Shown here piece by piece: positions 9,981-27,512 of a stretch of DNA of 33,536 bases (positions are counted from its first letter, which is position 1; each line of letters begins with the position of its first letter). Origin of the DNA: Candidatus Woesearchaeota archaeon (GTDB lineage Archaea; Nanobdellota; Nanobdellia; Woesearchaeales; UBA11716); contig DUKR01000080.1 of assembly GCA_013329175.1 (NCBI GenBank), positions 1 through 33,536 of the forward strand. Reading direction: 5' to 3'. The notes below the pieces were generated by a model that worked only from the letters and a program-made list of their open reading frames with translations, ran no database searches and was not told the DNA's origin. Both the position numbers and the translations under genes were made by a program.

Positions 9981-9986
9981 TGGCTG

Positions 9987-11878: not shown

Positions 11879-11914
11879 ATATCCCTCATCAAACGAAAAG
11901 CCCCCTGAATTGGC

Positions 11915-12883
11915 CTAACTTATTCTTTCCCCCTTATGCCTTTCCATGTCAGCATCTACCATCATGGTAACAAGCGCATTAAACGGTACCTTTGGCTTCC
12001 AGCCAAGCATTTTGCGTGCTTTTCCTGCGTCTCCTATGAGAGCATCCACTTCGGCAGGCCTGAAGAATCTCCTGTCCGTAACAACGTATTTCCTGTAATC
12101 AAGGCCGACATGGGAAAAAGCAATCTCGCAGAATTCCCTTACTGAGTGAGCCTCACCCGTTGCAACTACAAAATCATCGGGTGCATCCCGTTGCATCATA
12201 AGCCACATTGCCTCAACGTAGTCGCCGGCAAATCCCCAGTCCCGCCTGGCATCAAGATTCCCAAGATGCAGAACCTCCTGCAGCCCTAGCTTGATTTTCG
12301 CCACTGAGTCAGTTATTTTCCTCGTGACAAACTGCTTACCCCTTCTGGGAGATTCATGATTGAAAAGAATGCCATTGGCGCAGAACATGCCGTAGCTTTC
12401 CCTGTAGTTCTTAGCTATCCAGTACGCATAGACCTTAGCAACTCCGTACGGGCTTCTGGGGTAAAACGGGGTCGTTTCCTTTTGCGGGACCTCTACCGCC
12501 TTTCCAAACATCTCACTTGACGATGCCTGATATACTTTGATACCCTTATCAACATGGCGTACGGCCTCAAGCACCTGCAATGCACCAAGAGCGGTAACGT
12601 CGCCGGTCAGGAATGGCTGCTCAAATGATGCAGGGACAAAACTCTGGGCTGCGAGGTTATACACTTCGTCGGGCCGTATGGAGCTAAGCGCCCGAAGCAG
12701 CGATGCCTCATCTGTGAGGTCAGCACAGACCAGATGCAACCTGTCCCTGATGTGTTCAATGCGCTCAAAGGTCTCAACGCTAGACCTGCGGTAGATTCCA
12801 TGGACATCATATCCTTTAGAGAGAAGCAGTTCCGCAAGATACGAGCCATCCTGGCCCGTGATTCCTGTGATGAGTGCTTTCAT
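11915..12883 (-). CDS. gmd: GDP-mannose 4,6-dehydratase
   Basis: 322-aa ORF with [45 protein letters not shown] and [11 protein letters not shown], all typical Gmd motifs. Confidence 0.9.
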
Positions 12884-12939: not shown

Positions 12940-13977
12940 ATGCAAAAAGTAAATGTGAAAAAGGTGGCTATCCTCACTCCTACCTTCTTCAGGTTCTCAG
13001 GGATTGATAGGGTGGTAGAGCTTCAGGCAGAAGAGTACGCAAAAAAGGGGTGGGAGGTTACCATTTTCTGCCTGAAGGGTGACATAAGCACAAGATACGC
13101 TACCGTTGAGAAGATAGGGTGCCCGGAGTCGCCTTCTCTTGAGAGGCTCTATCGCCTGCTATTTTTTCTTGACATCGCTACAGTGAGGAAATATTCCAGA
13201 CGGATGAAAGATTTCGACATGATCATCAGTCATCTCTATCCTATGAATGTCATCGCTCATCAGGCAAGAAAGCGCTACCCCTTAACTTATATCTACCACA
13301 ACGCAGGAATTGCATACCCCCATCTCTTCCATGGGCTTGAGCGGCTCTACATGGAGGCGTTCAGATTGCTCACAAGGCTCACTATAAGGAATGCAGATGA
13401 GATAATCTCCATTTCTCATTTTCTAAAAAGAGAACTACAAAAAGAAGGGCTTGATTCCAGAGTTGAGCATTGCAAAATTGATGCAAAGCGGTTCACCATG
13501 GAAGCTGACCCGGAATCAGTACGCAGAAAGCATAGTATCAGCGACTCTCCCCTGTTCCTGTATGTAGGGAGGGTCTCCCCGCATAAGGGCATTCATCTCC
13601 TGCTGAAGGCTTTTGCTAAAGTCAGGGAAGAGCTGCCTGATGCAAAGCTGCTCATTGTCGGCAAAAAGACCTTTGATAGATATGGTAAGCAGCTTGACAG
13701 GATTGCCTGCAAAGGTGTTCTCTTCACGGGATTTGTTCCTGATGAAGAACTGCCTGCATACTATGCAGCTGCAGATGTCTATGTAACAGCCTCTCTATGG
13801 GAAGGGTATGATCTTCCTATCAAGGAGGCAGAAGCTGTAGGGACACCCTCGGTAGCATTCGCCATAGGCGCTCACCCTGAGGTACTCACCAAAGGCGCGA
13901 TGGTCACTGAAAATGATATTGAGGGATTTGCAATTGCAATGGTTAGTGAGCACAGAAAGAGGGTGAAGGGAAAGTGA
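12940..13977 (+). CDS. GT4-family (GT-B, group 1) glycosyltransferase
   Basis: 345-aa ORF with the C-terminal domain sequence FLYVGRVSPHKGI and the EX7E-type motif SLWEGYDLPIKEAEAVGTPSV. Confidence 0.8.
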   Translation: MQKVNVKKVAILTPTFFRFSGIDRVVELQAEEYAKKGWEVTIFCLKGDISTRYATVEKIGCPESPSLERLYRLLFFLDIATVRKYSRRMKDFDMIISHLYPMNVIAHQARKRYPLTYIYHNAGIAYPHLFHGLERLYMEAFRLLTRLTIRNADEIISISHFLKRELQKEGLDSRVEHCKIDAKRFTMEADPESVRRKHSISDSPLFLYVGRVSPHKGIHLLLKAFAKVREELPDAKLLIVGKKTFDRYGKQLDRIACKGVLFTGFVPDEELPAYYAAADVYVTASLWEGYDLPIKEAEAVGTPSVAFAIGAHPEVLTKGAMVTENDIEGFAIAMVSEHRKRVKGK

Positions 13978-15011
13978 ACATAGGGCTCCTTAGTCCCTTT
14001 CCTCCAGAAAAGGACGGAATTGCACTCTACTCGCAGGGACTGCTTTCTGCGTTACAGGAGCATGGGGTCAGAGTCACAAGCATAGGCAGGAAGCAAAGTG
14101 AGGCTGACTACCACCTTGACTTTAGGTCACTTCTCCTTGCAAAAAGTATTAAGGGTATTGCGAAGAAGGAAGGCATGGACATCCTTCACATTCAGTATAA
14201 CCCGACTTACTTCTCCAAATTTCTGCTGAACAGTAACATGATTGCATGTCTTAGGGGAAAGGCAAAGGCAGTCGTTACTATGCACGAGGTCAGGTATGGA
14301 GTAAAAGGGATGAAGGAAAGGATTATTGATGGAATTGATAAAAGCATAATCCGGAATGCCAAAGCAGTCATTGTTCATACGCCAAGACAAAAGCAAATGC
14401 TGGAGAAGAGGCACGGGGCAGGCAATGTCCATGTGATATACCATGGTCTCTGCATAAAGAGACCCCCTAAACCCCAAGGAGGCAAAAATCTCCTGGTGTT
14501 TGGGATGATCAGCAGGGGTAAGGGGGTTCCCTATGCAATAAGGGCAATGGAGCACCTGTCAGGATTCTCCTTAACCGTTGCAGGACGGTTCATTGACAGG
14601 CGCGCTGAAGAAGAGGTGAAAGAAGCGCTCTCTACAGCAGAAGGCAACGTTAGGACGGACTTTGGCTGGATCAGCGAAGAGAAAAAGGAGCAGTACTACC
14701 TCAACGCAGACATCGTTATTCTCCCACACCTCTGGGCCCCATACCAGTCAGGCATACTCCATAATGCAGTATCTTATGGAATTCCGGTCGTGGCAACGAA
14801 GGCAGGAGCTCTTGCAGAGATGGCAGAGGCATTTGGATTTGGGGAGATTGTCAGGCAGGGTGACCCAAAGGCTATTGCAGATGGTGTGAGAAGAATCTGT
14901 GACGGGTACAGCACGTATGCGAAAGGCATCATTGGCTATCAGAAAGAGGCTGAATGGAGCCATGTTGCAAGGAAGCATATCAGTGTATTTGAAAATGTTG
15001 CCAAGGAATGA
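13974..15011 (+). CDS. GT4-family glycosyltransferase
   Basis: 345-aa ORF starting at a GTG that overlaps the upstream stop (GTGA). It has the N-terminus MNIGLLSPFPPEKDGIALYS and the C-terminal sequence PYQSGILHNAVSYGIPVVAT. Confidence 0.75.
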   Translation: MNIGLLSPFPPEKDGIALYSQGLLSALQEHGVRVTSIGRKQSEADYHLDFRSLLLAKSIKGIAKKEGMDILHIQYNPTYFSKFLLNSNMIACLRGKAKAVVTMHEVRYGVKGMKERIIDGIDKSIIRNAKAVIVHTPRQKQMLEKRHGAGNVHVIYHGLCIKRPPKPQGGKNLLVFGMISRGKGVPYAIRAMEHLSGFSLTVAGRFIDRRAEEEVKEALSTAEGNVRTDFGWISEEKKEQYYLNADIVILPHLWAPYQSGILHNAVSYGIPVVATKAGALAEMAEAFGFGEIVRQGDPKAIADGVRRICDGYSTYAKGIIGYQKEAEWSHVARKHISVFENVAKE

Positions 15012-15013: not shown

Positions 15014-16657
15014 TTAGTATATTCCAGGCAACCAGTTACATGGTGCAAGTATTTCTTTAGCGTTTATCGGCTCAGAAAGATTGTAAAGTATCCTGTTCCC
15101 CTGAATGGTAGCAACGCCGTAAGAGATTGAATTGTTAGCCATAAATTTCTCCAGCCCGTCAGCTATATGCATAGTATAAGGGTCAAAGATGTATGCTGTA
15201 TGCTCATCGTTAGTCATAAGGGATTCTATGGGCCCATACCAGTTAGGGCAGGGGCAAAGGTCACATGAAGCGATGACCTTTTTCTGGGTATAAAACAGTA
15301 TTTTCCATTTAAGGGGATGGGAGGAGTACACTGAATGGATGGAATTATTTTCCAAAAAGTCGATAACGCCAGCAATGGACTCTTTGTCCTTTTCTGCGTA
15401 GGATTGTGCCAGTGGCGGGACTGTTCCAATCAACAGAAGTATAAGGATGCCCATCCCGAGAAAGACTCCCTGCCTGCTATGCTGCACAATAAGTGCGATG
15501 GCATAGGAGATAAGGAGAATAAAAAAAGGGAAGACTGGCGAAAAATGCTTCACGTCTGTCCATCCAGAAAGCATAAATATCATGGCCCAGAAGTATACAA
15601 ACAGGACAAGGATGAGCTCTTTTCTTGCTGTAGGAAACGCAATGGCACTTTCTGAAAAAGGGTTAAGCGAGGAAATAAACGGGAGGAAGTACCTTAGGTT
15701 CAGGATAGAAATGAGCCCAAAAAGCAGGAGAGCCAGGAAATAATACGTCCACGAGTTAAATAGGAGATGGAGGGTGACGGTAAAAAAAGAGGTTATGCTA
15801 AACTGGTTTCGAAGGTTCTTCTCAAAGATGTGGCAGGGGTCAATAATCCGGTCCCCATAGGCCATCTGGCCAGGCAAAAGGTTGTGTTCGCATGCAAATC
15901 TATGGATGGCGTTTCCAGCCATAAAATGCTTAATGTTTGAAAAATTGTGGGTTGCATTGTAATATATCAAGGGGCTGATGGAGACAAGCAGCAGCAGGAC
16001 AAACACCCTAAAGGTTTTCCTTGTATAAAACCGTTTGTCAGAAAGATACCAAATAAACACAAAAAACAGCAAATAAGCAAGAGCATACTCCAGATTCCAC
16101 CATGCTATGCCTACGGTCAGCCCCATAAGGCCTGCTTTAAGCATTGTTCCTTTACTTTTGACAAAAATGTCGTAAGTAAAGATGCCCATCAGCAGAAAGA
16201 AAAAAAGGGTTTCAGGATAGCCTGAAAGGCCCATTACTGAAAGCCTGGTCATGAAGGGGGAGGAAAATGTAAAGAGGGTAAGGGCAAATACTGCAGTGAG
16301 CTTCCCGAAGTGTCTGCTTGCAAAATAATACAGCAAAAAAAAAGTGGCACATGATACCATTACACTTACTAATTTAAAAGATATATCTGATATGCCGAAG
16401 AGTAAAAAGGTAAGAACCGCAAGGTAAGATTCGATGGCTGCTCCGCCAATGTAAGGCTCTCCGTAGATGAAATAGTGAAGTTTTCCCTCTTTAAACGTAT
16501 CCATGGCCATCACCGCAATGGATGCAGGGTCCCCTGCCAGATGCTGCTGTGATGTAAAGAGGAGAGCTAATCTTGTTACTAAAAAAATACCAAAGAGGAA
16601 AGCCACAGCAGCATGAAATCCCGTCGCCCGATGGCCTGGTCGCTTAGCGTGAGGCAT
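15014..16657 (-). CDS. GT-C-fold membrane glycosyltransferase, ArnT/PMT (GT39/GT83)-like (module B)
   Basis: 547-aa polytopic ORF. The first loop has acidic residues (HLAGDPASIAVMAMDTFKEG), followed by a PMT_2-like segment (KLVSVMVSCATFFLLYYFASRHFGKLTAVFALTLFTFSSPFM). The C-terminal soluble domain is about 130 aa. Confidence 0.7.
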   Translation of the reverse strand: MPHAKRPGHRATGFHAAVAFLFGIFLVTRLALLFTSQQHLAGDPASIAVMAMDTFKEGKLHYFIYGEPYIGGAAIESYLAVLTFLLFGISDISFKLVSVMVSCATFFLLYYFASRHFGKLTAVFALTLFTFSSPFMTRLSVMGLSGYPETLFFFLLMGIFTYDIFVKSKGTMLKAGLMGLTVGIAWWNLEYALAYLLFFVFIWYLSDKRFYTRKTFRVFVLLLLVSISPLIYYNATHNFSNIKHFMAGNAIHRFACEHNLLPGQMAYGDRIIDPCHIFEKNLRNQFSITSFFTVTLHLLFNSWTYYFLALLLFGLISILNLRYFLPFISSLNPFSESAIAFPTARKELILVLFVYFWAMIFMLSGWTDVKHFSPVFPFFILLISYAIALIVQHSRQGVFLGMGILILLLIGTVPPLAQSYAEKDKESIAGVIDFLENNSIHSVYSSHPLKWKILFYTQKKVIASCDLCPCPNWYGPIESLMTNDEHTAYIFDPYTMHIADGLEKFMANNSISYGVATIQGNRILYNLSEPINAKEILAPCNWLPGIY

Positions 16658-17402
16658 GGTGAAGTCTCTTTTGAGATATACAAATGAGGCTTATCCCGAA
16701 AGGAAGGAAACATCCTTTGGCAAGAAGGGCATTCTCTATTGACATCAGGTATTTTAATAAGCCATTTGCAAACATTGGAGTGAAGGTTAGTGAGTTTTTA
16801 TGGCCCCCGCCTGAAAAGCGAAGTAGTTTCTGCATAAGGAAGACAGCCATCGCAGGGATACTGAGAAACACATACCTGTAGCTTAGGAAGCGTATGCGAA
16901 AGGGGGAACTCAGCAGCGTTGTAAGCTGTTTTTTTGTATATCTCCTGAAATGATGGGCAAGGTCATCATCACTTGACCAAAGAAAAGGATGTGCCGGGAC
17001 AGTGGCAAGGAAGATGCCCCCTGGCCTGAGGATACGATGCACCTCCCTTATGCAGTCAATGTCTTTTTCAAGATGCTCAAGCAGTTCTATTGCCACGACG
17101 GCATCAAAAGAGCAGTCTGAAAACCGGGATAGGTTTTGAGCATCTCCCTTATACAGTCTGGGGATTTCTTTTTTTTTGCAGGAGGCAAGAGCACGCTCAT
17201 TGATGTCAACGCTCCATACTTTGCCTAATGGATGCAGCGCCAGATAGTTGAACCCAGTTCCACATCCAAGGTCGAGGATGCGAGCCGAGGTTATTGATTT
17301 GAGGTATGGCTTCAGGACTTTTGATAACATGCCCCTTCTTGAATGAATATACCAAAACCCCTCAGAAAATTCGTTATAGGTATCAAAATTGCTTGCTTCC
17401 AT
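16644..17402 (-). CDS. Class I SAM-dependent methyltransferase
   Basis: Motif I is ILDLGCGTGFNY, followed by FDAVVAIELLEHL and LRPGGIFLATVP. The 3' end overlaps the GT-C start by 14 nt. Confidence 0.8.
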   Translation of the reverse strand: MEASNFDTYNEFSEGFWYIHSRRGMLSKVLKPYLKSITSARILDLGCGTGFNYLALHPLGKVWSVDINERALASCKKKEIPRLYKGDAQNLSRFSDCSFDAVVAIELLEHLEKDIDCIREVHRILRPGGIFLATVPAHPFLWSSDDDLAHHFRRYTKKQLTTLLSSPFRIRFLSYRYVFLSIPAMAVFLMQKLLRFSGGGHKNSLTFTPMFANGLLKYLMSIENALLAKGCFLPFGISLICISQKRLHHASR

Positions 17403-17427
17403 TGCAGCGGGATGTAGTTGGCTTGCG

Positions 17428-17435
17428 TTTAAAAA
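17428..17435 (-). promoter_or_regulatory. TATA-like element (TTTTTAAA on the minus strand) overlapping the CE4 stop codon
   Basis: The centre is about 29.5 nt upstream of the methyltransferase ATG at 17402. Confidence 0.35.
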
Positions 17436-18247
17436 GCATTCTCATGTTTCTGCTTTGCAACCGAAATCGCTTCAATGCATGTGGAAAAGGAGTATCCCTC
17501 CGCTTTCAGATGCCTAAGAAGCAGGGAAAGGGTTGAAGCGGCAACACCTGCTTTGTGAGAGTACCATATCTTTTTGGCTATTCCAGCTTTATAGGGCTGC
17601 TTCCTTTGAAGCAGATCAAAAGGATGCAGGTACAAAACCAGAAAAGGCTGCAAAGGGAACAACGAAACTGCTGTTCTAAATAAGGGGATTCCCATAGCAT
17701 TAATCCAGAGCAGCCCAAACGGTAGCTTGAAAGGTGTAAACGTTGAAACGGGAATCTCGCTGAAATTGTCATGGATGGCAAAAGGTTTTTTTGGAATGGA
17801 TGGAGTGTGATACCTCCCAGGGAACAATCCTGAAATAAGCGAGGAATCGTACCTGAAACCCGCTTTTTTTATTACCGTGATGTACCCTTTTGGCAGAATG
17901 TACTGAGGGGCGCGAAAGCCCTGGGGCAACATGCCAAGGCAGGACAAGAAAAGTGAGCGTGCTTCCCTGAGGCTGTGGAGGAATTCCCGTGATGAAAGTT
18001 TGCTCACTGCGACATGGGTCAGGCCATGGCATCCAATTTCATGGCCACTGTCAATAATCTGCCTCATCTCATCCGAATACCTCGGAAGAAGATTGGCACA
18101 CACAAAAAACGTTCCTTTAATGTCCTCCTGCGAGAGTAAAGAAAGAATAGCAGGCAATCCTGCGGTGATGCCTTTATTCTCGCCTTCGACTGATATTCTC
18201 CCTCCCCAGTCTGTCTCAACGTCAACAGTGATAATGGCAGTCTTCAT
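17429..18247 (-). CDS. CE4 (NodB-type) polysaccharide deacetylase, cytoplasmic, ArnD/NaxD-like by context
   Basis: 272-aa ORF with the CE4 motifs TVDVETD (motif 1), GCHGLTH (motif 2) and FRAPQY (motif 3). It has no N-terminal signal peptide or TM segment. Confidence 0.75.
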   Translation of the reverse strand: MKTAIITVDVETDWGGRISVEGENKGITAGLPAILSLLSQEDIKGTFFVCANLLPRYSDEMRQIIDSGHEIGCHGLTHVAVSKLSSREFLHSLREARSLFLSCLGMLPQGFRAPQYILPKGYITVIKKAGFRYDSSLISGLFPGRYHTPSIPKKPFAIHDNFSEIPVSTFTPFKLPFGLLWINAMGIPLFRTAVSLFPLQPFLVLYLHPFDLLQRKQPYKAGIAKKIWYSHKAGVAASTLSLLLRHLKAEGYSFSTCIEAISVAKQKHENAF

Positions 18248-18256
18248 GTCACTACC

Positions 18257-19105
18257 TCACTTTCTTACCAGAAGAGCAATCTGGTCAGCAACAAGGCCGA
18301 ATAGAAATGTCAGCATGCCTGCGATGACAAGAAGAAGGGCACTCTCGCTGGTCTGCAGGGAACTGATGATCCTGTAAAGCAAAAGCGGTATCCCTATGGC
18401 AAAAAGGAGCATGCTGGCAGGAAGAAATACTTTGAGAGGGTTAAATAGCATGGTCATTCTGATCATCAGCATGACAAACCTAAATCCGTCCCTGAAAGGC
18501 CGTATGGAGCTTTTGCCGCTTTTTCTTTCCCTGATAGTGATGGGGACGTAAGTGACGGTATATCCTGCCTTAAAGAGGGCCATGGTAATGGTGGTAGTAA
18601 AGGAGAAAGTGTCGGGAAGCAAATGCATGTATTTGATGACCAGATTTCGTCGTATGAGCCTGAACCCTGAATTGAGGTCAGGGATGGGCCTCTCAAGAAG
18701 GTAATGCGCAAAATGATGAAGAAATACTTTTCCCAGCCCCCGTAGCGCTGAGGCCTGCCTGGAGCGCGCGCCGACAATCATGTCATAGGTACCAAGGGAA
18801 GAGAGAAAAAGGGCAATATCTGCAGGAGCATGCTGCCCATCGCCGTCCATGTACAGGAGGTACTCTCCCTTTGCGGCAATTGCACCAGTCTTCAGCGCAG
18901 CGCCATAGCCCTTGTTATAAGGGTGCCTCATGATATGTATTCCTGAATGCTGTGCTGCAAGGGAGAGAGGAGGGCTTGAACCGTCATCAACGACCATGAT
19001 TTCGTATTTCAGGCCTGACGCCACCAAAATTTCACTGGCAGAAGAAACTACGCTGGGTATCTGTGCAATATCATTATAGCAAGGGATGACAAGCGATAGG
19101 TCCAT
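18257..19105 (-). CDS. GT2 polyprenyl-phosphate sugar transferase, ArnC/GtrB-like, with two C-terminal TM helices
   Basis: Motifs LSLVIPCYND, MVVDDGSSPP, YNKGYGAALKTG and YMDGDGQH. The C-terminal hydrophobic helices are VFLPASMLLFAIGIPLLLY and LLLVIAGMLTFLFGLVADQIALLV. Confidence 0.75.
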   Translation of the reverse strand: MDLSLVIPCYNDIAQIPSVVSSASEILVASGLKYEIMVVDDGSSPPLSLAAQHSGIHIMRHPYNKGYGAALKTGAIAAKGEYLLYMDGDGQHAPADIALFLSSLGTYDMIVGARSRQASALRGLGKVFLHHFAHYLLERPIPDLNSGFRLIRRNLVIKYMHLLPDTFSFTTTITMALFKAGYTVTYVPITIRERKSGKSSIRPFRDGFRFVMLMIRMTMLFNPLKVFLPASMLLFAIGIPLLLYRIISSLQTSESALLLVIAGMLTFLFGLVADQIALLVRK

Positions 19106-19112
19106 GTTCTTG

Positions 19113-20390
19113 TTATAGGCTCAGATAAATGAACCCTTGTTTATTGGCTTCAACAGGCGAATACAAAGATTTGATGTCATACAGGATTGGGGGGGTTGTC
19201 TGGACCTTTTTAATTGCTTCCAATGGCGTGGATGAGAACTGCCTGTGCGGGCTGAAAATGACTATTGCATCAACCTTTTCTCTCGGGGGAAACGATGAGG
19301 GCGCTACCCCAAAATGGGCAGAAATGTGGGAATCAGAAACCAGGGGGTCATGGGCAGTAACCTCACAACCCATGTTTTGCAGCGCTTCAATCATGTCTTT
19401 TGCCTTGCTGTTGCGAAGGTCAGGGACATTCTCCTTGAACGTAATACCCATGAAAAGGACTTTTCTTCCAGAGGGGCTCTTTTTTGCTAACTCATGGTGC
19501 AGCCGTTTGGCTGCGTGGAGTGGCATGTAGTTATTGATGCCTCTTCCAGACAGGATTAATTTAGGGTCATAGCCAATCTTCTGCGCTTTATAGGTAAGGT
19601 AGTAAGGGTCAACGCCGATGCAATGCCCGCCTACCATTCCAGGAGAAAATCTGCAGAAGTTCCATTTTGTTCCTGCTGCTTCAAGCACATCTCTGGTTGA
19701 TATCCCCATTCTTTCAAAAATCAGGGACAATTCGTTCATGAGCGCTATGTTCAGGTCCCGCTGGATATTCTCTATGACTTTTGCTGCTTCGGCAACCTTG
19801 ATGCATGGTGCCTTATGAATGCCTGCCCTGATGGTTGTTCCATAGACTGCTTCCATTTCGCGAAGAGTAGCTTTGTGGTCTGAGGAAATAACTTTTGTGA
19901 TTTTCTCCACGCTGTGCTCTTTATCTCCAGGATTTATTCTCTCTGGAGAATACCCCACAAAAAAGTCAGAGTTCGACATCATTCCTGAATGCTTTTCCAG
20001 CTCAGGGATGCAGATCTCTTCTGTGGCTCCTGGGTATACCGTGCTTTCATACACTATGATGCTGCCTTTCTGCAGTTTTTTCCCAATAAGCCCTGATGCG
20101 GAAATAAGGGCAGTGAAATCAGGCTCGTTATTGATGGTAATGGGGGTGGGGACGCAGACCACAATAAAGGTTGAGGATGAAATGACGCCTTCGTTATTGC
20201 TGTACCTCAGAGATGATGCTTTCAGCTCTTCTGAAGAAACTTCACCTGTTGAATCATGATACTCCTTAAGCTCGCTGATCCTCAGGGCATTAATGTCAAA
20301 ACCAACGGTCTCAAAGTGCCTGGCAAAAGCCAAAGCAAGAGGGAGCCCTACATACCCCAGGCCAACAACGCAAAGCTTATGACGTGGCAT
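19113..20390 (-). CDS. Nucleotide-sugar 6-dehydrogenase, TviB/WbpO/WecC-type (probably UDP-N-acetylhexosamine dehydrogenase)
   Basis: 425-aa ORF with the N-terminal sequence VVGLGYVGLPLALAFA and the catalytic Cys context MVGGHCIGVDPYYLT. That context is typical of the UDP-HexNAc dehydrogenase branch rather than the GGSCFPKD of UDP-glucose dehydrogenases. Confidence 0.75.
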   Translation of the reverse strand: MPRHKLCVVGLGYVGLPLALAFARHFETVGFDINALRISELKEYHDSTGEVSSEELKASSLRYSNNEGVISSSTFIVVCVPTPITINNEPDFTALISASGLIGKKLQKGSIIVYESTVYPGATEEICIPELEKHSGMMSNSDFFVGYSPERINPGDKEHSVEKITKVISSDHKATLREMEAVYGTTIRAGIHKAPCIKVAEAAKVIENIQRDLNIALMNELSLIFERMGISTRDVLEAAGTKWNFCRFSPGMVGGHCIGVDPYYLTYKAQKIGYDPKLILSGRGINNYMPLHAAKRLHHELAKKSPSGRKVLFMGITFKENVPDLRNSKAKDMIEALQNMGCEVTAHDPLVSDSHISAHFGVAPSSFPPREKVDAIVIFSPHRQFSSTPLEAIKKVQTTPPILYDIKSLYSPVEANKQGFIYLSL

Positions 20391-21333
20391 TGTACCATTT
20401 CAGCGTGAGTTGTAACCCCTTCCTTACGTCAACTTTCGGGGAAAAACCGAGAAGATTTCTTGCTAATGATATGTCCGCAGGGTTCGCCGCAACTTCTCCT
20501 GGGAGGGGATCAAGATAAGATACTTTGGCTTTCCTGCCCATGGCCTCCTCAAGCATTCCAATGACATCGTTGATAGCCACGTCTTCTTCGCTGGACACGT
20601 TGAGCGTGAGGCCATTTGCGCTGTCAGCCAATGCTGCACGAATAGTGCAGTCCACTACGTCTGAAACGAAGGTAAAGTTGCGCCGCTGCGACCCATCACC
20701 GTAAACTTCAACTGGCTCTTCCCTGCTTATTCTGGACATAAACTTCGGAATCACTGCAGCATAAGGTATTACTCCAAGCTGGCGTGGGCCATAGACTGAA
20801 AAATACCTCAGAGAGACTGTAGGCAGCCCATAGAGCTCGTAGTAAATGCGGGCATATTGCTCACCACTCAGCTTTGCTGCACCATAGGGATGGGTTGGCC
20901 TGACAGGGTCGCTTTCCCTTCTCGGGAGCAGGCTGGATGAGCCATACACTGATGAGCTTGAGATATTGACTACTTTCTTTACGTTTGACTTTCTGGAAGC
21001 TTCCAGAACGTGGAGGGTGCCTGTTGAGGTTATGGCATGGGACAAAAGGGGATCATTGACAGACTTCATTGCCCTGTTCATTGCAGCGAGGTGGAATACG
21101 AGGTCTTTGGATTTGCAGGCAGCAAGAACAACTGGAAAATCGGTGACAGAGCCTTTTAGGATGTGGACTCCCTTCTTTTCCAGAGGTTTTGCATGGGCTG
21201 TTGTTATGCTAAAGTCATCAAGAACCGTAACGTCATTTCCCATTCCTGCAAGTGATTCGCTTAAATGGCTCCCGATAAATCCTGCCCCTCCGGTAACAAG
21301 GATTTTTTTATTGCAACATGAGGAAGTGCTCAT
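20377..21333 (-). CDS. NAD-dependent nucleotide-sugar epimerase (extended SDR; TviC/WbpP-like by context)
   Basis: 318-aa ORF with KKILVTGGAGFIGSHL and YGAAKLSGE (YxxxK). The 3' end overlaps the dehydrogenase start by 14 nt. Confidence 0.7.
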   Translation of the reverse strand: MSTSSCCNKKILVTGGAGFIGSHLSESLAGMGNDVTVLDDFSITTAHAKPLEKKGVHILKGSVTDFPVVLAACKSKDLVFHLAAMNRAMKSVNDPLLSHAITSTGTLHVLEASRKSNVKKVVNISSSSVYGSSSLLPRRESDPVRPTHPYGAAKLSGEQYARIYYELYGLPTVSLRYFSVYGPRQLGVIPYAAVIPKFMSRISREEPVEVYGDGSQRRNFTFVSDVVDCTIRAALADSANGLTLNVSSEEDVAINDVIGMLEEAMGRKAKVSYLDPLPGEVAANPADISLARNLLGFSPKVDVRKGLQLTLKWYNATS

Positions 21334-21358
21334 AGCAATCTATCGTGCATGGAGTCCG

Positions 21359-21405: not shown

Positions 21406-23316
21406 CTACAGAAGGGAGATGTTCTTGTAGTCCTTTTTCTCAATAAAAATGGAGTGCCACAGCTCAAAAGTAAGCACATTCCAGAGCTGCCTGCTGTAAA
21501 ATAGTGGGGCGTTAGCGTATCTCTCAAGCATGTGAGTTATTGCCTTATGGCTGATATAGCCTGACGTAAAATGTGCAGGATCAGAAAGATATGGCTGAAG
21601 ATCCTTTTGCATCCAGTCATCCATGGGCACATAAAAGCGCTGCTTTTTTCTCTTTGCAGTGGCTGGAGGCACATAAGGCCTGAGGGCTTCCCGCAGCACA
21701 TATTTTTCCTTCCTTCCCGCAAGCTTATAGTGGGCAGGCATCCTGAACGCAAGTTCTGCTATCCGGTGGTCAAGATACGGGACCCTTGCTTCTATGCCAT
21801 GGGCCATAGTCATTTTATCAGTTTTTAGCAGGTATCCCTCAGGGAGGAGCGTCTCACACTCAAGGCGCTGTAACTGGTGAAGGTACGGCTCTTTTCGTGA
21901 AAAATAAGGCGCTATCTTTCCGGGGAGATCATGCCTGCCAGCAAGGTGCGGAGTAAGAATATTCTCTGCCTCCCCGTCGCTGACAAGGCTGGAAAAGAAA
22001 AGGTAGGATGAAGTCTTATCAGGCAGGGAGCTTAGGATGGAAGCGACGCGGTTCTTTCCCTCGCACCCTAAACCGGCAGCATACTTGAAAAAAGGAGTAA
22101 GCAGCGGGGATGGGACCGCTGAAAGCAGCCTTCCTGCAGCGTTTCTCACAGGTGAAGGAAAAAAAGACAGCCGATGGAGCATGGGGAGGAATGCATACTG
22201 CTCGTATCCAGCGAATAATTCATCTGCTCCATCACCGGTAAGGACAACTGCTACTTTCCCTGCTGCCTTCCCTGAAAGAAATTTTACGGGCAGCAATGCC
22301 GGATCGCCTAAAGGCTCATCAGCATGCCATACTGCAGAAGGGAGCGTATTGACGAGTGAGGTATCCATGGAAAAAGTGGCATGGTCTGCCTCAAAATGCG
22401 CTGCAACCTCTTCAGCAAGCAAAGATTCATTATCAGCATGGCTAAACCCCGCAGAATACGTACGGATGGGCCCGGAAAAAATCCCTTTTTCTCTCAGGCG
22501 GGATGCCATGCCTAATATCCCTCCTGAGTCTATCCCTCCTGATAAATAGATGCCAACGGGCCTGTCAGCAACCAGCCGCTTTGCTACAGAGTCCTCCAGA
22601 AGTTTCAGCAATTCCTCTTTTGCAGATGCAAATGTTCTCTTTTCGATAGAAGTCGGCAAAGAAAAGTATCTTTCCAATTCTGCTTTCTTTGTGGACAGGC
22701 TATAGGACAGGCAGTATCCTGCGGGAAGCTTGAGGATTCCATCAATTAGCGTCTGAGAGAAAGGAGTATAGCCTAAGCAGAAAAAGTGCCTGAATGCCTC
22801 ATGGTGGACAGATGGTGAAAAGCCATCATCAGCAAGCAGGGCCTTCATCTCTGAGGAGAAAGAAAGCATCCCCGCATTCAGCCGGTAGTATAGGGGCTTA
22901 ATCCCCAGCCTGTCTCTTGCCAGAATTACCTTCCTGTTTGTTTGGTCATAGATGGCAAACGAAAAGCATCCATTCAGATAAGATACTATCCCTGCTCCGT
23001 ATTCTTCATACCCGTGCACAAGAACTTCAGTGTCGGTTTCGCTGGAAAACCTGTGGCCCTTTGTAATAAGGCCTGAACGTAATTCTCTGTAATTGTAGAT
23101 TTCTCCGTTGAAAATGACGCAGACATCCCCTGTTTCATTAAACATTGGCTGCCTGCCTCTCTCAGACAGGTCAATGATGGAAAGCCTTCGGTGGCCAAGG
23201 GTCATGTGGCCATCACAGAATGTCCCAGACTGGTCAGGCCCCCGATGGGAAATAAGCCCTAGACCCTTCTTCAGGTAAGATGCATCATCCCATGAAAACC
23301 CAAAAATGCCGCACAT
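21406..23316 (-). CDS. Asparagine synthetase B-like glutamine-dependent amidotransferase
   Basis: 636-aa ORF with an N-terminal MCGIFGF (Ntn Cys2 nucleophile), a GATase class II domain, and the PP-loop motif YLSGGIDSG. Confidence 0.85.
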   Translation of the reverse strand: MCGIFGFSWDDASYLKKGLGLISHRGPDQSGTFCDGHMTLGHRRLSIIDLSERGRQPMFNETGDVCVIFNGEIYNYRELRSGLITKGHRFSSETDTEVLVHGYEEYGAGIVSYLNGCFSFAIYDQTNRKVILARDRLGIKPLYYRLNAGMLSFSSEMKALLADDGFSPSVHHEAFRHFFCLGYTPFSQTLIDGILKLPAGYCLSYSLSTKKAELERYFSLPTSIEKRTFASAKEELLKLLEDSVAKRLVADRPVGIYLSGGIDSGGILGMASRLREKGIFSGPIRTYSAGFSHADNESLLAEEVAAHFEADHATFSMDTSLVNTLPSAVWHADEPLGDPALLPVKFLSGKAAGKVAVVLTGDGADELFAGYEQYAFLPMLHRLSFFPSPVRNAAGRLLSAVPSPLLTPFFKYAAGLGCEGKNRVASILSSLPDKTSSYLFFSSLVSDGEAENILTPHLAGRHDLPGKIAPYFSRKEPYLHQLQRLECETLLPEGYLLKTDKMTMAHGIEARVPYLDHRIAELAFRMPAHYKLAGRKEKYVLREALRPYVPPATAKRKKQRFYVPMDDWMQKDLQPYLSDPAHFTSGYISHKAITHMLERYANAPLFYSRQLWNVLTFELWHSIFIEKKDYKNISLL

Positions 23317-23348: not shown

Positions 23349-23379
23349 TTCACGATAGATTCGACCGAGGGCGAATCCC

Positions 23380-24147
23380 ATGACTAAAAAAAAATTTAAA
23401 CAGGGGCTTTTTTTCATACCGCACATGCACAAGGGCAAGAGCGTATCAGTTGTTTTCCCTGCATTTAACGAGCAGGAAGGGATTGGTGCAGCAGTCAGGG
23501 AGTTCTTTGCAACAGGCATTGTGGATGAGATTGTAGTCGTTGATAACAATTCAAAAGATAACACCTCCAACAAGGCAACAGAGGCAGGCGCAAGGGTTGT
23601 TCTTGAAAAGAGGCAGGGCTACGGATGGGCCAGCAGGAGAGCCCTGCACGAAGCAAAAGGAGACATCATCATTATCGCTGAGCCAGACGGCACATTTGCA
23701 GGGAAAGATATCTTCAAGCTTCTTGCCTACGCCCAAGACTTTGATATTATCTTTGGGACAAGGACATCAAAGGAAAGCATATGGGATGGAGCCAACATGA
23801 ACCTGTTCCTCAGGTATGGCAACGTCTTTGTCGCAAAGCTTATGGAATACCTCTTCAACGGCCCCTGCCTCACTGACGTAGGATGCACTATGAAATTATT
23901 CAGGAGGGAAGCAATCGAAAGGATAAAGCCAAAATTTACTGTTGGGGGATCACACTTCTCCCCAGAGCTGATGATATTGGCGATAACAAGCAAAGCTAAG
24001 TGCATAGAGATTCCTCTGAATTATCGCAAAAGGGTTGGAGCCTCAAAGATAACAGGGGATCTCTCAAAAGCTATCAGGCTTGGGTTCGTCATGATTGGCC
24101 TTATCCTTGCATACAGGCTTGGATTCAAAAAGGCCGCTGGAAAATGA
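23380..24147 (+). CDS. GT2 polyprenyl-phosphate sugar synthase-like glycosyltransferase with a C-terminal TM helix (module C)
   Basis: Motifs VSVVFPAFNEQEGI, IVVVDNNSKDNT and IIIIAEPDGTF. The C-terminal helix is IRLGFVMIGLILAYRLGF. The stop overlaps the start of the next gene (ATGA at 24144-24147). Confidence 0.7.
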   Translation: MTKKKFKQGLFFIPHMHKGKSVSVVFPAFNEQEGIGAAVREFFATGIVDEIVVVDNNSKDNTSNKATEAGARVVLEKRQGYGWASRRALHEAKGDIIIIAEPDGTFAGKDIFKLLAYAQDFDIIFGTRTSKESIWDGANMNLFLRYGNVFVAKLMEYLFNGPCLTDVGCTMKLFRREAIERIKPKFTVGGSHFSPELMILAITSKAKCIEIPLNYRKRVGASKITGDLSKAIRLGFVMIGLILAYRLGFKKAAGK

Positions 24148-26975: not shown

Positions 26976-27512
26976 ATGAAAAAAAAAGAAAGCGCCATGC
27001 CAAGAAAGCTTAATATCGGCTGCGGGTTTGACCTGCGAGCTGGCTTTGTGAATGCGGACATCAGAGAGCCATGCGATGTAAAATTGGACATGTCAAAAAA
27101 GCCATACCCATTTAAGGATAACAGCTTTGATTACATCCTTATGAACAATGTCCTTGAGCACATTGAAACGCCCCTCATGGTGATTGAAGAGATTCACAGG
27201 ATTTGCTCGCCTGCAGGGACAATTGAGATTATTGTTCCATTTTATAACAGCCCCAATGCGTACAATGACATAACCCATGTCCGCTTCTTTCACAGGGACA
27301 CGCTGAAAGATTTTGATATCAACACGAAAGGAAAGCGGTACGAGGCATCACCAGTGAAGTTCCGGATAAAGACTGTGCTGCATCCTTCACTCTTCGGAAG
27401 GCTCATTCCTAAGCCGCTGCTCAATGTATGCGCAGTTACCATCGGAAATCTTGTTGCTGCAGTAACCTACAAGCTTACCCCTGTCAAGGATGAAAATTCT
27501 CCTAATGAATGA
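26976..27512 (+). CDS. Small class I SAM-dependent methyltransferase (Methyltransf_11-like)
   Basis: 178-aa ORF with LNIGCGFDLRAGFVNADI and FDYILMNNVLEHI. An alternative start is ATG 26997. The 3' end overlaps the next gene by 23 nt. Confidence 0.7.
   Translation: MKKKESAMPRKLNIGCGFDLRAGFVNADIREPCDVKLDMSKKPYPFKDNSFDYILMNNVLEHIETPLMVIEEIHRICSPAGTIEIIVPFYNSPNAYNDITHVRFFHRDTLKDFDINTKGKRYEASPVKFRIKTVLHPSLFGRLIPKPLLNVCAVTIGNLVAAVTYKLTPVKDENSPNE

What the first reader, a model, noticed from the sequence alone, without database searches (positions are those of the whole stretch)
15014..21333. ArnC/ArnD/ArnT-like (FlmF2/NaxD/FlmK-like) operon that would edit a sugar on its lipid carrier, with an inserted methyltransferase, in an archaeal-looking genome
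Seen in the sequence: six same-strand genes are packed with gaps of -14 to +26 nt.
- SDR epimerase, 20377-21333.
- TviB/WbpO-type dehydrogenase with GGHCIGVDPYY, 19113-20390.
- GT2 with two C-terminal TM helices, 18257-19105.
- CE4 deacetylase with intact motifs and no signal peptide, 17429-18247.
- Class I SAM methyltransferase, 16644-17402.
- 547-aa GT-C membrane transferase, 15014-16657.

Established knowledge: two bacterial systems use this enzyme order. These are the enterobacterial Arn (L-Ara4N) pathway and the Francisella FlmF2/NaxD/FlmK (GalN) pathway. In both, a GT2 loads an N-acylated aminosugar onto undecaprenyl phosphate. A cytoplasmic CE4 enzyme then removes the acyl group from the lipid-linked sugar. 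A GT-C enzyme finally transfers the sugar to lipid A on the outer face of the membrane.

Inference: the same GT2 / CE4 / GT-C order here suggests the same logic, with three differences.
- The upstream dehydrogenase and epimerase suggest that the sugar is an N-acetylhexosaminuronic acid.
- A methyltransferase sits between the deacetylase and the GT-C gene, so the freed amine or the carboxylate may be methylated on the carrier.
- If the host is an archaeon there is no lipid A, so the acceptor would be something else (S-layer glycoprotein, glycolipid or a polymer).

I am not aware of such a system being characterised in archaea.
Basis: partly seen in the sequence, partly recalled or inferred. Interest (0 to 1): 0.8.

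Follow-up and report, generated by a model that had tools for sequence, protein, structure and literature searches.

The report
Archaeal lipid-linked aminosugar editing operon
A groundwater DPANN archaeon carries a compact operon that probably builds an acidic amino sugar, loads it onto a membrane lipid carrier, removes its acetyl group there and attaches it to the cell surface. This is the logic bacteria use to modify lipid A, here with different enzyme lineages, and it is predicted only from sequence.

Summary
The six genes are real, at the stated coordinates and tightly packed. Domain calls hold:
- The GT2 is an ArnC/DPMS/GtrB-type polyprenyl-phosphate sugar synthase with two C-terminal TM helices.
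- The CE4 model is confident, with no hydrophobic N-terminus. It falls among the structures reported as ArnD's nearest neighbours but is not an ArnD ortholog.
- The 547-aa protein has a GT-C fold; ArnT is its best structural match.

The host is a Woesearchaeota-lineage archaeon, so lipid A is not the acceptor.

GT2-CE4 linkage recurs in about 17 of 20 assessable independent loci. A Woesearchaeota reference MAG carries nearly the whole module.

- NaxD is a YdjC-family enzyme, not CE4.
- A conserved AsnB-type amidotransferase (21406-23316) belongs to the module, so the sugar is probably a HexNAc-uronamide.
- The methyltransferase is not conserved.
- The two closest GT-C homologs sit in GT2-AsnB-MTase-GT-C modules without a CE4, so deacetylation is optional for that GT-C clade.
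- Haloferax AglD/AglR/AglS/AglP already show lipid-carried sugar transfer plus methylation in archaea.

Verdict: plausible new variant of a known kind. Deacetylation on the carrier is inferred, not shown.

The parts
21406..23316 (-). AsnB-type glutamine amidotransferase (636 aa). Proposed WbpS-like amidation of the uronic acid carboxylate.
   Evidence: PF00733 287 bits and GATase_7 151 bits. TIGR01536 446 bits, above its cutoff of 267. Orthologs next to the GT2a type in L008, L009, L011, L022, and L042 and L043. WbpS precedent: PMC6025236.
21334..21405 (-). 72-nt intergenic region upstream of the SDR gene, with a TATA-like box (ctatataaac) and the 11-mer CACGATAGATT (21337-21347). Possible archaeal promoter.
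   Evidence: Sequence read. The same exact 11-mer lies upstream of the divergent GT2b gene at 23351-23361. The sigma-70 and terminator scan is not above shuffles.
20377..21333 (-). SDR. Probable UDP-HexNAc(A) 4-epimerase (WbpP/WbgU/TviC-like).
   Evidence: PF01370 183 bits. Best solved relatives are 6dnt, 6wjb/6wj9, WbgU and WbpP, at 160-190 bits. TviC model 153 bits, below its cutoff.
19113..20390 (-). Nucleotide-sugar 6-dehydrogenase, TviB/WbpO-like (probable UDP-HexNAc to UDP-HexNAcA).
   Evidence: Three UDPG_MGDP_dh domains. TIGR03026 359.5 bits, above its cutoff of 189.8. TviB model 412 bits (cutoff 592), versus 188 bits for the archaeal UDP-ManNAc dehydrogenase model.
18257..19105 (-). 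GT2 polyprenyl/dolichyl-phosphate sugar synthase (ArnC/DPMS/GtrB/AglJ class) with two C-terminal TM helices.
   Evidence: PF00535 77 bits. Best solved relatives are ArnC 9hwj (56 bits, residues 3-268), DPMS 5mlz and GtrB 5ekp. NCBIfam: AglJ 100, PpgS 62, ArnC 48 bits, all below their cutoffs. TM segments at 226-244 and 255-273.
17429..18247 (-). CE4/NodB-fold de-N-acetylase with no hydrophobic N-terminus or TM segment. Proposed to deacetylate the carrier-linked HexNAcA(N).
   Evidence: PF01522 65 bits. AF2 pLDDT 91.8. Foldseek: 3qbu, 3rxz, 3cl6, 1z7a; ArnD 8t0j at rank 16 with TM 0.60. Invariant D9/E11/D13/H74/H78/R112/P114/H208. Hydropathy scan finds no hydrophobic segment. Linked to the GT2a type in about 17 of 20 assessable loci.
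16644..17402 (-). Class I SAM methyltransferase with hydrophobic C-terminal segments. Overlaps the GT-C gene by 14 nt. Target unknown (freed amine or a hydroxyl proposed).
   Evidence: PF08241 74 bits. Only generic methyltransferase hits in NCBIfam and PDB. Hydrophobic segment at 225-243. Not conserved in L011, L008 or L009. An unrelated methyltransferase precedes the GTC1 ortholog in L043.
15014..16657 (-). GT-C fold membrane glycosyltransferase (ArnT-like architecture, PMT_2-type family) with a C-terminal soluble alpha/beta domain. Proposed to transfer the edited sugar to an extracellular acceptor.
   Evidence: PMT_2 20.6 bits, below the gathering score. AF2 pLDDT 77.9. Foldseek top hits are ArnT 5f15/5ezm, then AglB, ALG9 and PglB. 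Family size: 1146 representatives at E<=1e-3, 26 at <=1e-30. 34 of 40 members match PMT_2. The family profile reaches ArnT marginally, with GDEA (D43) aligned to ArnT PDEG. Some gene callers use a later start, giving 530 aa.

Best explanation
This is a seven-gene archaeal module (21406-23316 plus the six reported genes). It most likely makes a surface-glycan decoration by a 'lipid-carried single sugar' route.

Proposed steps:
1. In the cytoplasm, a TviB/WbpO-like dehydrogenase and a WbpP-like 4-epimerase convert UDP-HexNAc to UDP-HexNAcA. An AsnB/WbpS-like amidotransferase probably converts the carboxylate to the amide (HexNAcAN).
2. The ArnC/DPMS-type GT2 transfers this sugar to dolichyl phosphate at the inner face of the membrane.
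3. The CE4 removes the N-acetyl group from the carrier-linked sugar, exposing a free amine.
4. The class I methyltransferase, whose gene overlaps the GT-C gene, may then methylate the sugar, most plausibly at the freed amine or a hydroxyl.
5. The carrier-sugar is flipped across the membrane. Candidates are two ArnE/ArnF-like small EamA proteins encoded just outside the window.
6. The ArnT-like GT-C transfers the sugar on the outer face to a non-lipid-A acceptor, such as a protein-bound glycan, an S-layer glycoprotein or another envelope polymer.

Shown here: gene presence, fold and family assignments, archaeal host, and conserved GT2-CE4, GT2-AsnB-GT-C and whole-module linkage.

Inferred: sugar identity, the stage at which the CE4 and the methyltransferase act, the flippase and the acceptor.
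For: - GT2 class: best solved relatives by sequence are ArnC, DPMS and GtrB. It has two C-terminal TM helices. Top NCBIfam hits are AglJ, PpgS and ArnC.
- CE4: confident NodB-fold model. No hydrophobic N-terminus or TM segment, and the N-terminus matches the family consensus. It shares ArnD's reported structural neighbourhood.
- GT-C: ArnT is the top structural hit and the only solved structure reached by the family profile, marginally, with the conserved Asp aligned to ArnT's PDEG. 34 of 40 family members match PMT_2.
- Linkage: a GT2a-type gene is adjacent to the CE4 in L007, L008, L009, L011, L014, L020, L022, L024, L026, L033, L034 and L037. It is within 1-3 kb in L012, L016, L023, L027 and L028.
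- A PMT/PMT_2-type GT-C lies near the CE4 in L008, L009, L011, L014, L017 and L020.
- The Woesearchaeota contig L011 carries AsnB-SDR-DH-GT2-CE4, about 1.9 kb of other genes, then the GTC1 ortholog (496 bits).
- Sugar: the SDR's best solved relatives include WbgU and WbpP. The dehydrogenase scores best against TviB. The WbpO/WbpP/WbpS route to UDP-GalNAcAN is the precedent (PMC6025236).
- Archaeal host.
- ArnE/ArnF are the best NCBIfam hits for the two small EamA proteins next to the window.
- Precedents for the logic: Arn; Francisella and Acinetobacter NaxD (PMC11279074); mycobacterial PpgS/Rv3779 (PMC9671496); Haloferax AglD/AglR/AglS/AglP (PMC3871713).
Against: - No biochemical data exist. 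Nothing here distinguishes deacetylation of a carrier-linked sugar from deacetylation of a nucleotide sugar.
- The CE4 is not an ArnD ortholog (18.5 bits against a cutoff of 382; 32 bits with the family profile). Its nearest named family, the XrtA/PEP-CTERM polysaccharide deacetylases (92 bits, below cutoff), has no known substrate.
- The two closest GTC1 homologs sit in GT2-AsnB-(MTase)-GT-C modules with no CE4. The GT-C clade therefore does not require a deacetylated donor.
- The methyltransferase is not conserved, and its target cannot be read from sequence.
- WOR-3 loci have the CE4 without a GT2a-type gene.
- The ArnE/F-like hits are below their cutoffs, lie about 15 kb from the module, and are absent from the other loci.
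- The top NCBIfam hit of the GT2 is AglJ, which initiates a Dol-P-linked oligosaccharide rather than making a single-sugar donor.
Confidence: 0.5

Rival explanations
1. Nucleotide-level editing. The CE4 (and possibly the methyltransferase) acts on the soluble UDP-HexNAcA(N) precursor. The GT2 then loads the already de-N-acetylated or methylated sugar onto the carrier, or onto another acceptor.
For: The CE4 has no hydrophobic N-terminus or TM segment, which fits a soluble substrate equally well. It is encoded next to the nucleotide-sugar enzymes. Its nearest named relatives have no established lipid substrate.
Against: In all the characterised analogues I found, deacylation follows transfer to the carrier: ArnD and NaxD (PMC11279074), and the model proposed for mycobacterial GalN (PMC9671496). 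The CE4 is linked most tightly to the membrane GT2, not to the dehydrogenase or epimerase, which are absent from most loci. From my own knowledge, known nucleotide-sugar or soluble de-N-acetylases usually belong to other families, such as LpxC and PIG-L/LmbE.
Confidence: 0.2
2. AglJ-like initiation. The GT2 puts the first sugar of an oligosaccharide on dolichyl phosphate. The island's four GT4 enzymes extend it, the CE4 and methyltransferase edit the growing lipid-linked oligosaccharide, and an AglB-type oligosaccharyltransferase encoded elsewhere delivers it. GTC1 would add a separate branch or use another donor.
For: AglJ is the best NCBIfam hit of the GT2 (100 bits). Four GT4 genes flank the module at 12940-15011 and 27490-29776. 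In Haloferax the Agl enzymes, including the methyltransferase AglP, contribute to assembling a Dol-P-linked glycan (PMC3871713). GTC1 homologs occur without a CE4.
Against: The AglJ score is far below its cutoff of 325. The GT2 is linked to a PMT_2-type GT-C in seven lineages including the window, which is the signature of a single-sugar-donor system. The GT4 genes are not conserved next to the module in L008, L009 or L011.
Confidence: 0.2
3. Polymer synthase plus polymer deacetylase, like PgaC/PgaB, IcaA/IcaB or NodC/NodB. The GT2 polymerises a HexNAc-type polysaccharide and the CE4 partially deacetylates it.
For: GT2-CE4 adjacency is also typical of those systems. Weak NCBIfam hits to PgaC (39 bits) and NodB (39.5 bits).
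Against: The GT2 is only 282 aa with two C-terminal TM helices, and it aligns along its length with ArnC, DPMS and GtrB. Reading the translation, I see no QxxRW motif. The CE4 has no export signal by hydropathy, so it could not reach an extracellular polymer. Classical secreted CE4 enzymes are not its nearest structural relatives.
Confidence: 0.03

Closest known systems
Enterobacterial Arn (PmrF/ArnC - ArnD - ArnE/F - ArnT) L-Ara4N lipid A modification pathway
   Same: The enzyme logic and fold classes match. There is a GT2 polyprenyl-phosphate sugar synthase with C-terminal TM helices, and ArnC is its best solved relative by sequence. There is a NodB-fold deacylase without an export signal that shares ArnD's structural neighbourhood. 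There is a GT-C whose best structural match is ArnT. A pair of small EamA proteins nearby has ArnE and ArnF as best hits.
   Different: None of the proteins is an ortholog: ArnC 48 bits (cutoff 529), ArnD 18.5 bits (cutoff 382), no ArnT model hit. The sugar precursor genes are WbpO/WbpP/WbpS-like rather than ArnA/ArnB. The group removed would be acetyl rather than formyl. A methyltransferase is present. The host is an archaeon without lipid A, and the carrier is presumably dolichyl phosphate.
Francisella/Acinetobacter FlmF2 - NaxD - FlmK (GalN) pathway. The Bordetella LgmA/B/C (GlcN) lipid A pathway is recalled from memory and was not checked here.
   Same: Und-P-HexNAc is deacetylated on the carrier before transfer (PMC11279074).
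   Different: NaxD is a YdjC-superfamily deacetylase, not CE4. The acceptor is lipid A. There is no uronic acid or amide chemistry and no methyltransferase.
Mycobacterial/corynebacterial PpgS - Rv3632 - Rv3779 galactosamine modification of arabinogalactan
   Same: A GT2 makes polyprenyl-P-GalNAc. The sugar is deacetylated and flipped, and a membrane transferase adds GalN to a non-lipid-A envelope polymer (PMC9671496). PpgS is the second-best NCBIfam hit of the window's GT2 (62 bits).
   Different: The flippase and deacetylase of that system are still unidentified. The host is bacterial and there are no uronic acid or amide genes. The PpgS score is far below its cutoff of 370.
Haloferax volcanii AglD / AglR / AglS (Dol-P-mannose branch) and AglP methyltransferase
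   Same: It is archaeal. A GT2 charges dolichyl phosphate with one sugar, the sugar is moved across the membrane, and it is transferred outside the cell to a protein-bound glycan. A SAM methyltransferase (AglP) contributes, and the glycan carries a methyl ester of a hexuronic acid (PMC3871713).
   Different: No deacetylase step is known there. The sugar is mannose, not an amino-uronic acid. The AglJ model scores 100 bits against a cutoff of 325. No AglS model was available to test.
XrtA/PEP-CTERM exopolysaccharide loci (TIGR03006 deacetylase, TIGR03108 AsnB-type amidotransferase, FemAB-like protein)
   Same: TIGR03006 is the best NCBIfam hit for the CE4 and TIGR03108 is a high-scoring hit for the amidotransferase. 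A FemAB-like gene accompanies this CE4 family in about 11 loci.
   Different: Both scores are well below their cutoffs (92 against 276; 418 against 817). The window has no FemAB-like gene and no exosortase context. The substrates of those bacterial enzymes are unknown, so the comparison gives no mechanism.

Membership tests
Arn pathway (ArnC/ArnD/ArnT orthologs) | ArnC equivalog (NF007986, cutoff 529 bits) | tested here: not met
   48.3 bits. ArnC is nevertheless the best solved relative by sequence, at 56 bits.
Arn pathway (ArnC/ArnD/ArnT orthologs) | ArnD equivalog (NF011923, cutoff 382 bits) | tested here: not met
   18.5 bits. The family profile scores 32 bits against 8t0j, versus 86 bits against 3qbu. 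ArnD ranks 16th in Foldseek with TM 0.60.
Arn pathway (ArnC/ArnD/ArnT orthologs) | ArnT ortholog that transfers to lipid A | tested here: not met
   No NCBIfam family hit. The fold is ArnT-like, but the sequence relation is marginal (E 0.011). The host is an archaeon, so lipid A is not expected.
Arn pathway (ArnC/ArnD/ArnT orthologs) | ArnA/ArnB genes for UDP-Ara4FN synthesis | tested here: not met
   The module's precursor genes are TviB/WbpO-like, WbpP-like and AsnB-like. The only ArnB-like aminotransferase (248 bits, cutoff 631) belongs to a different module at 9987-11099.
Arn pathway (ArnC/ArnD/ArnT orthologs) | ArnE/ArnF heterodimeric flippase | tested here: inconclusive
   Two adjacent small EamA proteins (116 and 124 aa) lie just outside the window (L038 11543-12264). 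Their best hits are ArnE (42 and 39.5 bits) and ArnF (37.7 and 22.7 bits), below the cutoffs of 92 and 99. They were not found in the other loci.
Polyprenyl-phosphate glycosyltransferases (GT2; DPMS/GtrB/ArnC/AglJ class) | GT-A GT2 domain, C-terminal TM helices, and collinear similarity to solved members | tested here: met
   PF00535 77 bits, above its gathering score of 23.3. Aligned to ArnC over residues 3-268, and to DPMS and GtrB. TM segments at 226-244 and 255-273. A DGD motif (YMDGDGQH) is visible in the translation.
CE4 / NodB-fold metal-dependent deacetylases | NodB domain above the Pfam threshold, with conserved Asp, His-His, Arg-Pro and His catalytic positions | tested here: met
   PF01522 65.2 bits, above its gathering score of 23.1. 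Invariant D9/E11/D13, H74/H78, R112/P114 and H208. AF2 pLDDT 91.8, with NodB-fold Foldseek hits. The assignment of these residues to motifs MT1-MT5 is by inspection.
XrtA/PEP-CTERM polysaccharide deacetylase (TIGR03006) | Equivalog score of at least 276 bits | tested here: not met
   91.8 bits. It is the best NCBIfam hit but is below the cutoff.
GT-C glycosyltransferases (PMT_2 / ArnT-like) | Polytopic GT-C fold with a conserved acidic residue in the first extracytoplasmic loop, and a PMT_2 match | tested here: met
   The protein's own PMT_2 score is below threshold (20.6 against 26.1). However, 34 of 40 family members match PMT_2. The top Foldseek hits are ArnT, AglB, ALG9 and PglB. D43 is conserved in at least 90% of members and aligns with ArnT's PDEG.
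WbpO/WbpP/WbpS-type UDP-HexNAcA(N) synthesis | UDP-HexNAc 6-dehydrogenase, HexNAc(A) 4-epimerase and AsnB-type amidotransferase encoded together | tested here: inconclusive
   All three gene types are present and contiguous. The dehydrogenase passes the TIGR03026 subfamily cutoff, but scores 412 bits against TviB's cutoff of 592. TviC scores 153 bits against a cutoff of 760. WbpP and WbgU are among the SDR's best solved relatives. No WbpS model was available. The precedent comes from PMC6025236.
Haloferax Agl system (AglJ/AglD, AglS, AglP) | AglJ equivalog (TIGR04182, cutoff 325); AglS and AglP orthology | tested here: not met
   AglJ scores 99.7 bits. AglS and AglP could not be tested because no models or sequences were available in these tools.

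The most novel reading that the evidence does not exclude
The CE4 family represented here (TVDVETDWG N-terminus, no export signal, same structural neighbourhood as ArnD) is a widespread and so far unrecognised functional equivalent of ArnD and NaxD. It would de-N-acetylate polyprenyl- or dolichyl-phosphate-linked HexNAc-uronic acid or uronamide sugars made by a dedicated ArnC-type GT2, in DPANN and Altiarchaeota archaea and in several uncultured bacterial lineages.

The freed amine would then be diversified in different ways: by a class I methyltransferase here, and by FemAB-like acyltransferases or B12-radical SAM enzymes elsewhere. A GT-C would then place the resulting cationic sugar on the cell surface. 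In an episymbiotic DPANN archaeon, such a charged surface decoration could matter for contact with the host.
Probability: 0.35. Interest if true: 0.7.

Novelty: new variant of a known kind. Interest (0 to 1): 0.55.

Why it matters
If correct, this would be the first archaeal example of editing a sugar (de-N-acetylation, perhaps followed by methylation) while it sits on its lipid carrier. It would extend a strategy known from bacterial lipid A and arabinogalactan modification to archaeal surface glycans.

It would also assign a role to a recurrent but uncharacterised CE4 clade and its GT2 partner. That clade occurs in both archaea and bacteria and is related to the unexplained deacetylase and amidotransferase genes of PEP-CTERM exopolysaccharide loci.

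It offers a candidate enzyme type for systems whose deacetylase is still unknown, such as mycobacterial GalN.

It also shows that a genome-reduced DPANN archaeon invests more than 30 kb in surface glycan chemistry. That includes at least two, possibly three, lipid-carrier sugar modules and a phosphonate pathway.

All of this is prediction from sequence. The practical value is a clearly testable hypothesis using three or four small soluble or membrane enzymes.

Tried and rejected
- **Source organism by accession.** A literature search for DUHB01 / GCA_013331045 found nothing. The exact-cluster look-up returned no names. The source MAG is not among the reference genomes scanned. Taxonomy came instead from SecD/SecF on the contig flank.
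- **tRNA genes as taxonomic markers.** None in the window or the flanks.
- **Bacterial promoter and terminator scan.** Counts are no higher than in shuffles, so it is uninformative, as expected for an archaeon.
- **ArnD orthology of the CE4.** Rejected.
- **Processive polysaccharide synthase reading of the GT2.** Rejected on size, topology and nearest relatives.
- **Lipid A as acceptor.** Rejected because the host is archaeal. The FabZ-like gene at 3525-4022 matches only the FabZ half of the LpxC/FabZ fusion model.
- **Relatedness of the window's three large membrane proteins.** BLASTP and hhalign are inconclusive.
- **ArnE/F-like or GtrA-like flippase genes in the other loci.** No ArnE/F-like pair was found. 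There is only a weak GtrA-like ORF in L011 (18.8 bits).
- **Methyltransferase function.** Only generic class I hits.
- **Shared 11-mer.** It is absent from loci of other organisms, so there is no evidence that it is a conserved regulatory site.

Full report
**Observation.** Pfam confirms the SDR epimerase, the three-domain nucleotide-sugar dehydrogenase, GT2, CE4 (PF01522, 65 bits) and the class I methyltransferase. The 547-aa protein scores only 20.6 bits on PMT_2, below the gathering score of 26.1, so the GT-C call needed independent support. The GGHCIGVDPYY motif, the two C-terminal TM helices of the GT2, and the absence of a hydrophobic N-terminus or TM segment in the CE4 are confirmed. 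The topology calls come from a hydropathy scan, not a dedicated predictor.

**What the three core proteins are.**

*GT2.* Its best solved relatives by sequence are ArnC (56 bits, residues 3-268), *Pyrococcus* DPMS and GtrB. Its best NCBIfam hits are AglJ (100 bits), PpgS (62) and ArnC (48), all far below their cutoffs. It therefore belongs to the polyprenyl-phosphate sugar synthase class but is not an ortholog of any named enzyme. Its size and topology exclude a processive synthase.

*CE4.* The model is confident (pLDDT 91.8). Foldseek ranks 3qbu, 3rxz, PuuE 3cl6, 1z7a and 3s6o first, and ArnD 8t0j comes 16th with a similar TM-score of 0.60. A published structural classification reports that ArnD's own closest relatives are 3RXZ, 3QBU, 1Z7A and 3S6O, the 'NodB1.2' group, and that these are distinct from the classical secreted CE4 enzymes (PMC10967932). 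So this CE4 shares ArnD's structural neighbourhood, but it is not an ArnD ortholog: the NCBIfam ArnD model gives 18.5 bits against a cutoff of 382, and the family profile gives 32 bits against ArnD versus 86 against 3qbu. Family-invariant residues D9, E11, D13, H74, H78, R112, P114 and H208 indicate an intact active site.

*GT-C.* The AF2 model (pLDDT 77.9) has *Cupriavidus* ArnT as its top Foldseek hit (E 6e-9, TM 0.55-0.59), followed by AglB, ALG9, PglB, OST, DPY19 and PMT. A sensitive search finds 1146 representatives at E<=1e-3 and 26 at <=1e-30. 34 of 40 sampled members match PMT_2. The family profile reaches ArnT as the only solved structure, marginally (E 0.011), and the conserved GDEA (D43) aligns with ArnT's PDEG.

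**Host.** Longer contigs carrying the same genes extend past the window. Their SecD and SecF match the PRK08343/PRK08578-type models and the haloarchaeal SecF model far better than the general models: SecD 362 against 144 bits, SecF 213 against 77 bits. I believe those PRK models are the archaeal type, but that is from memory. All named SecF homologs (54-57% identity) are from Woesearchaeota, Nanoarchaeota or Nanoarchaeia archaea. The contigs come from groundwater metagenomes. The host is therefore a DPANN archaeon, and lipid A cannot be the acceptor.

**Conservation.**

- Contigs carrying the identical CE4 (L001-L006) are the same population and were not counted.
- Among independent loci found through CE4 homologs (28-45% identity), a GT2a-type gene is directly adjacent in L007, L008, L009, L011, L014, L020, L022, L024, L026, L033, L034 and L037. 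It is within 1-3 kb in L012, L016, L023, L027 and L028.
- It is absent from the WOR-3 locus L010/L013 and from L015 and L021. The remaining contigs are too short to judge. That makes about 17 of 20 assessable loci.
- A PMT/PMT_2-type GT-C lies nearby in L008, L009 (weak), L011, L014, L017 (Altiarchaeota) and L020.
- The Woesearchaeota reference contig L011 carries AsnB-SDR-DH-GT2-CE4, then a B12-radical SAM gene and a pterin-binding-domain gene on the opposite strand, then the GTC1 ortholog (496 bits) and a weak GtrA-like ORF.
- An AsnB-type amidotransferase is linked to the GT2 in L008, L009, L011, L022, L042 and L043, so the window's gene at 21406-23316 belongs to the module.

**Qualification from the reciprocal test.** The two closest GTC1 homologs lie in modules that have a GT2a-type gene, AsnB and a methyltransferase but no CE4. 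L043 reads GT2-AsnB-MTase-GT-C. L042 reads GT2-AsnB-x-SDR-GT-C and also has orthologs of the window's second GT2/GT-C pair. Deacetylation is therefore an optional addition for this GT-C clade. The methyltransferase at 16644-17402 is not conserved either. Across the CE4 family, the recurrent accessory partners are a FemAB-like acyltransferase (about 11 loci) and a B12-radical SAM enzyme (about 7 loci). This pattern fits a model in which the amine freed by the CE4 is the site of further, lineage-specific derivatisation, but that is inference.

**Likely mechanism.**

1. The dehydrogenase scores best against TviB (412 bits, against 188 for the archaeal UDP-ManNAc dehydrogenase model).
2. The SDR's best solved relatives include WbgU and WbpP, which I recall as UDP-HexNAc 4-epimerases.
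3. With the amidotransferase these resemble the WbpO/WbpP/WbpS set, which is proposed to make UDP-GalNAcAN (PMC6025236).
4. I therefore propose: UDP-HexNAc, then UDP-HexNAcA, then the amide. The GT2 next transfers the sugar to dolichyl phosphate and the CE4 de-N-acetylates it on the carrier, with optional methylation. The sugar is then flipped and GTC1 transfers it outside the cell to a non-lipid-A acceptor.
5. If the carboxylate is amidated, the methyltransferase cannot be making a methyl ester. The freed amine or a hydroxyl is the more likely target.
6. The methyltransferase has hydrophobic C-terminal segments and its gene overlaps the GT-C gene by 14 nt. A second methyltransferase/polytopic-protein pair with an 8-nt overlap exists at 7653-8294 / 6041-7660. 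An unrelated methyltransferase directly precedes the GTC1 ortholog in L043.
7. Two small EamA proteins just beyond the window have ArnE and ArnF as their best hits, below the cutoffs. They are flippase candidates only.

**Comparison with known systems.**

- The logic matches Arn.
- It also matches the *Francisella*/*Acinetobacter* GalN route, but NaxD is a YdjC-superfamily enzyme, not CE4 (PMC11279074).
- A third bacterial analogue, mycobacterial PpgS/Rv3632/Rv3779, already shows a non-lipid-A acceptor, and its deacetylase and flippase are still unidentified (PMC9671496).
- In archaea, *Haloferax* AglD/AglR/AglS use a Dol-P-mannose donor that is transferred outside the cell. AglP is a methyltransferase in the same pathway, whose glycan carries a methyl ester of a hexuronic acid (PMC3871713).
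- What has no described archaeal counterpart, in my searches, is a de-N-acetylation step coupled to such a system.

**Verdict.** The locus is best described as a new variant of a known kind: a lipid-carried aminosugar editing and transfer module, built from non-orthologous enzymes, in a DPANN archaeon, with uronamide chemistry. The stage at which the CE4 acts, the methyltransferase's target, the flippase and the acceptor are not established. Confidence in the full mechanism is about 0.5. The GT2-to-GT-C donor relationship alone is more secure, at roughly 0.7.

Noticed in passing
window 23380-25817 (+): A second lipid-carrier module, divergent from the first. It has a GT2 (255 aa, one C-terminal TM; AglJ 90 bits and haloarchaeal Dol-P-hexose transferase 87 bits) followed by a PMT_2/PMT GT-C (48 and 31 bits). 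Orthologs of both sit beside the GTC1 ortholog in L042 (260 and 194 bits). The 605-aa GTG-start ORF overlaps the GT2 by 148 nt, while gene callers give 557 aa, so the true start is probably later.
   Followed up: partly
window 6041-12883 (-): A possible third module. It contains GDP-mannose 4,6-dehydratase (465 bits, above its cutoff), a GT2 without TM helices whose best hit is ArnC (69 bits), a DegT aminotransferase (PseC 283 and ArnB 248 bits), an SDR, a methyltransferase (7653-8294) overlapping by 8 nt a 539-aa protein with about 10 TM segments and no family hit (6041-7660). This suggests a 4-amino-6-deoxyhexose route, but the fold of the membrane protein is untested.
   Followed up: partly
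window 29844-33399 (-): A phosphonate biosynthesis cluster in a DPANN archaeon. It has a cytidylyltransferase-PEP mutase fusion (TIGR02320 407 bits, cutoff 320), phosphonopyruvate decarboxylase (TIGR03297 511 bits, cutoff 313) and an Fe-alcohol dehydrogenase (PsrA-like, 169 bits, below cutoff). It sits at the edge of the glycan island, suggesting a phosphonate (hydroxyethyl- or aminoethylphosphonate-type) decoration of the same surface glycan.
   Followed up: partly
window 21337-21347 (-) and 23351-23361 (+): The exact 11-mer CACGATAGATT occurs only twice in the window. Each copy follows a TATA-like box just upstream of the first gene of one of the two GT2/GT-C modules (the SDR and GT2b). By my rough estimate, sharing an 11-mer between these two specific ~70-nt regions has a chance of about 0.002 before correcting for the number of intergenic pairs. 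It is found only in contigs of the same population. It may be a shared regulator or promoter element.
   Followed up: partly
L038 11543-12264 (about 0.4-1.1 kb beyond the window's left edge): Two adjacent small EamA-family membrane proteins (116 and 124 aa) whose best NCBIfam hits are the ArnE and ArnF flippase subunits (42/39.5 and 37.7/22.7 bits; cutoffs 92 and 99). They are next to SecD and SecF. They are candidate flippases for the lipid-linked sugar. No such pair was seen in the other loci.
   Followed up: partly
L008, L009, L010/L013, L015, L016, L021, L023, L025, L027, L028, L036 (FemAB-like); L007, L009, L010, L011, L023, L033, L035 (B12-radical SAM): This CE4 family is recurrently accompanied by a FemAB-like (Acetyltransf_6) gene, often directly upstream. 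It is also accompanied by a B12-binding radical SAM gene, directly downstream in L023, L033 and L035. The window has neither and instead has a class I methyltransferase after the CE4. In L011 the radical SAM gene is paired with a PterinBD-DUF4346 gene.
   Followed up: partly
window 73-4022 (-): Thiolase, DUF362, thiolase and a FabZ-like dehydratase in a row. The thiolases' best hits are PRK06064 and a model whose name suggests the Methanothermococcus thiolase. FabZ scores 112 bits against a cutoff of 113. This is an unusual fatty-acid-like gene set for an archaeon. The FabZ match to the LpxC/FabZ fusion model covers only the FabZ half.
   Followed up: no
window 4213-5708 (+): A small cupin protein (135 aa; Polysacc_synt_C and Cupin_2 hits) overlapping by 4 nt an SDR (363 aa). 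This is probably another nucleotide-sugar modifying pair (isomerase/epimerase plus reductase) serving the island.
   Followed up: no
window 12940-15011 (+) and 27490-29776 (+): Two pairs of GT4 (GT-B) glycosyltransferases flank the modules, along with a truncated-looking methyltransferase (26976-27512, 178 aa, matching only the C-terminal half of the methyltransferase profiles). No oligosaccharyltransferase (AglB) or Wzx-type flippase is encoded in the window.
   Followed up: no
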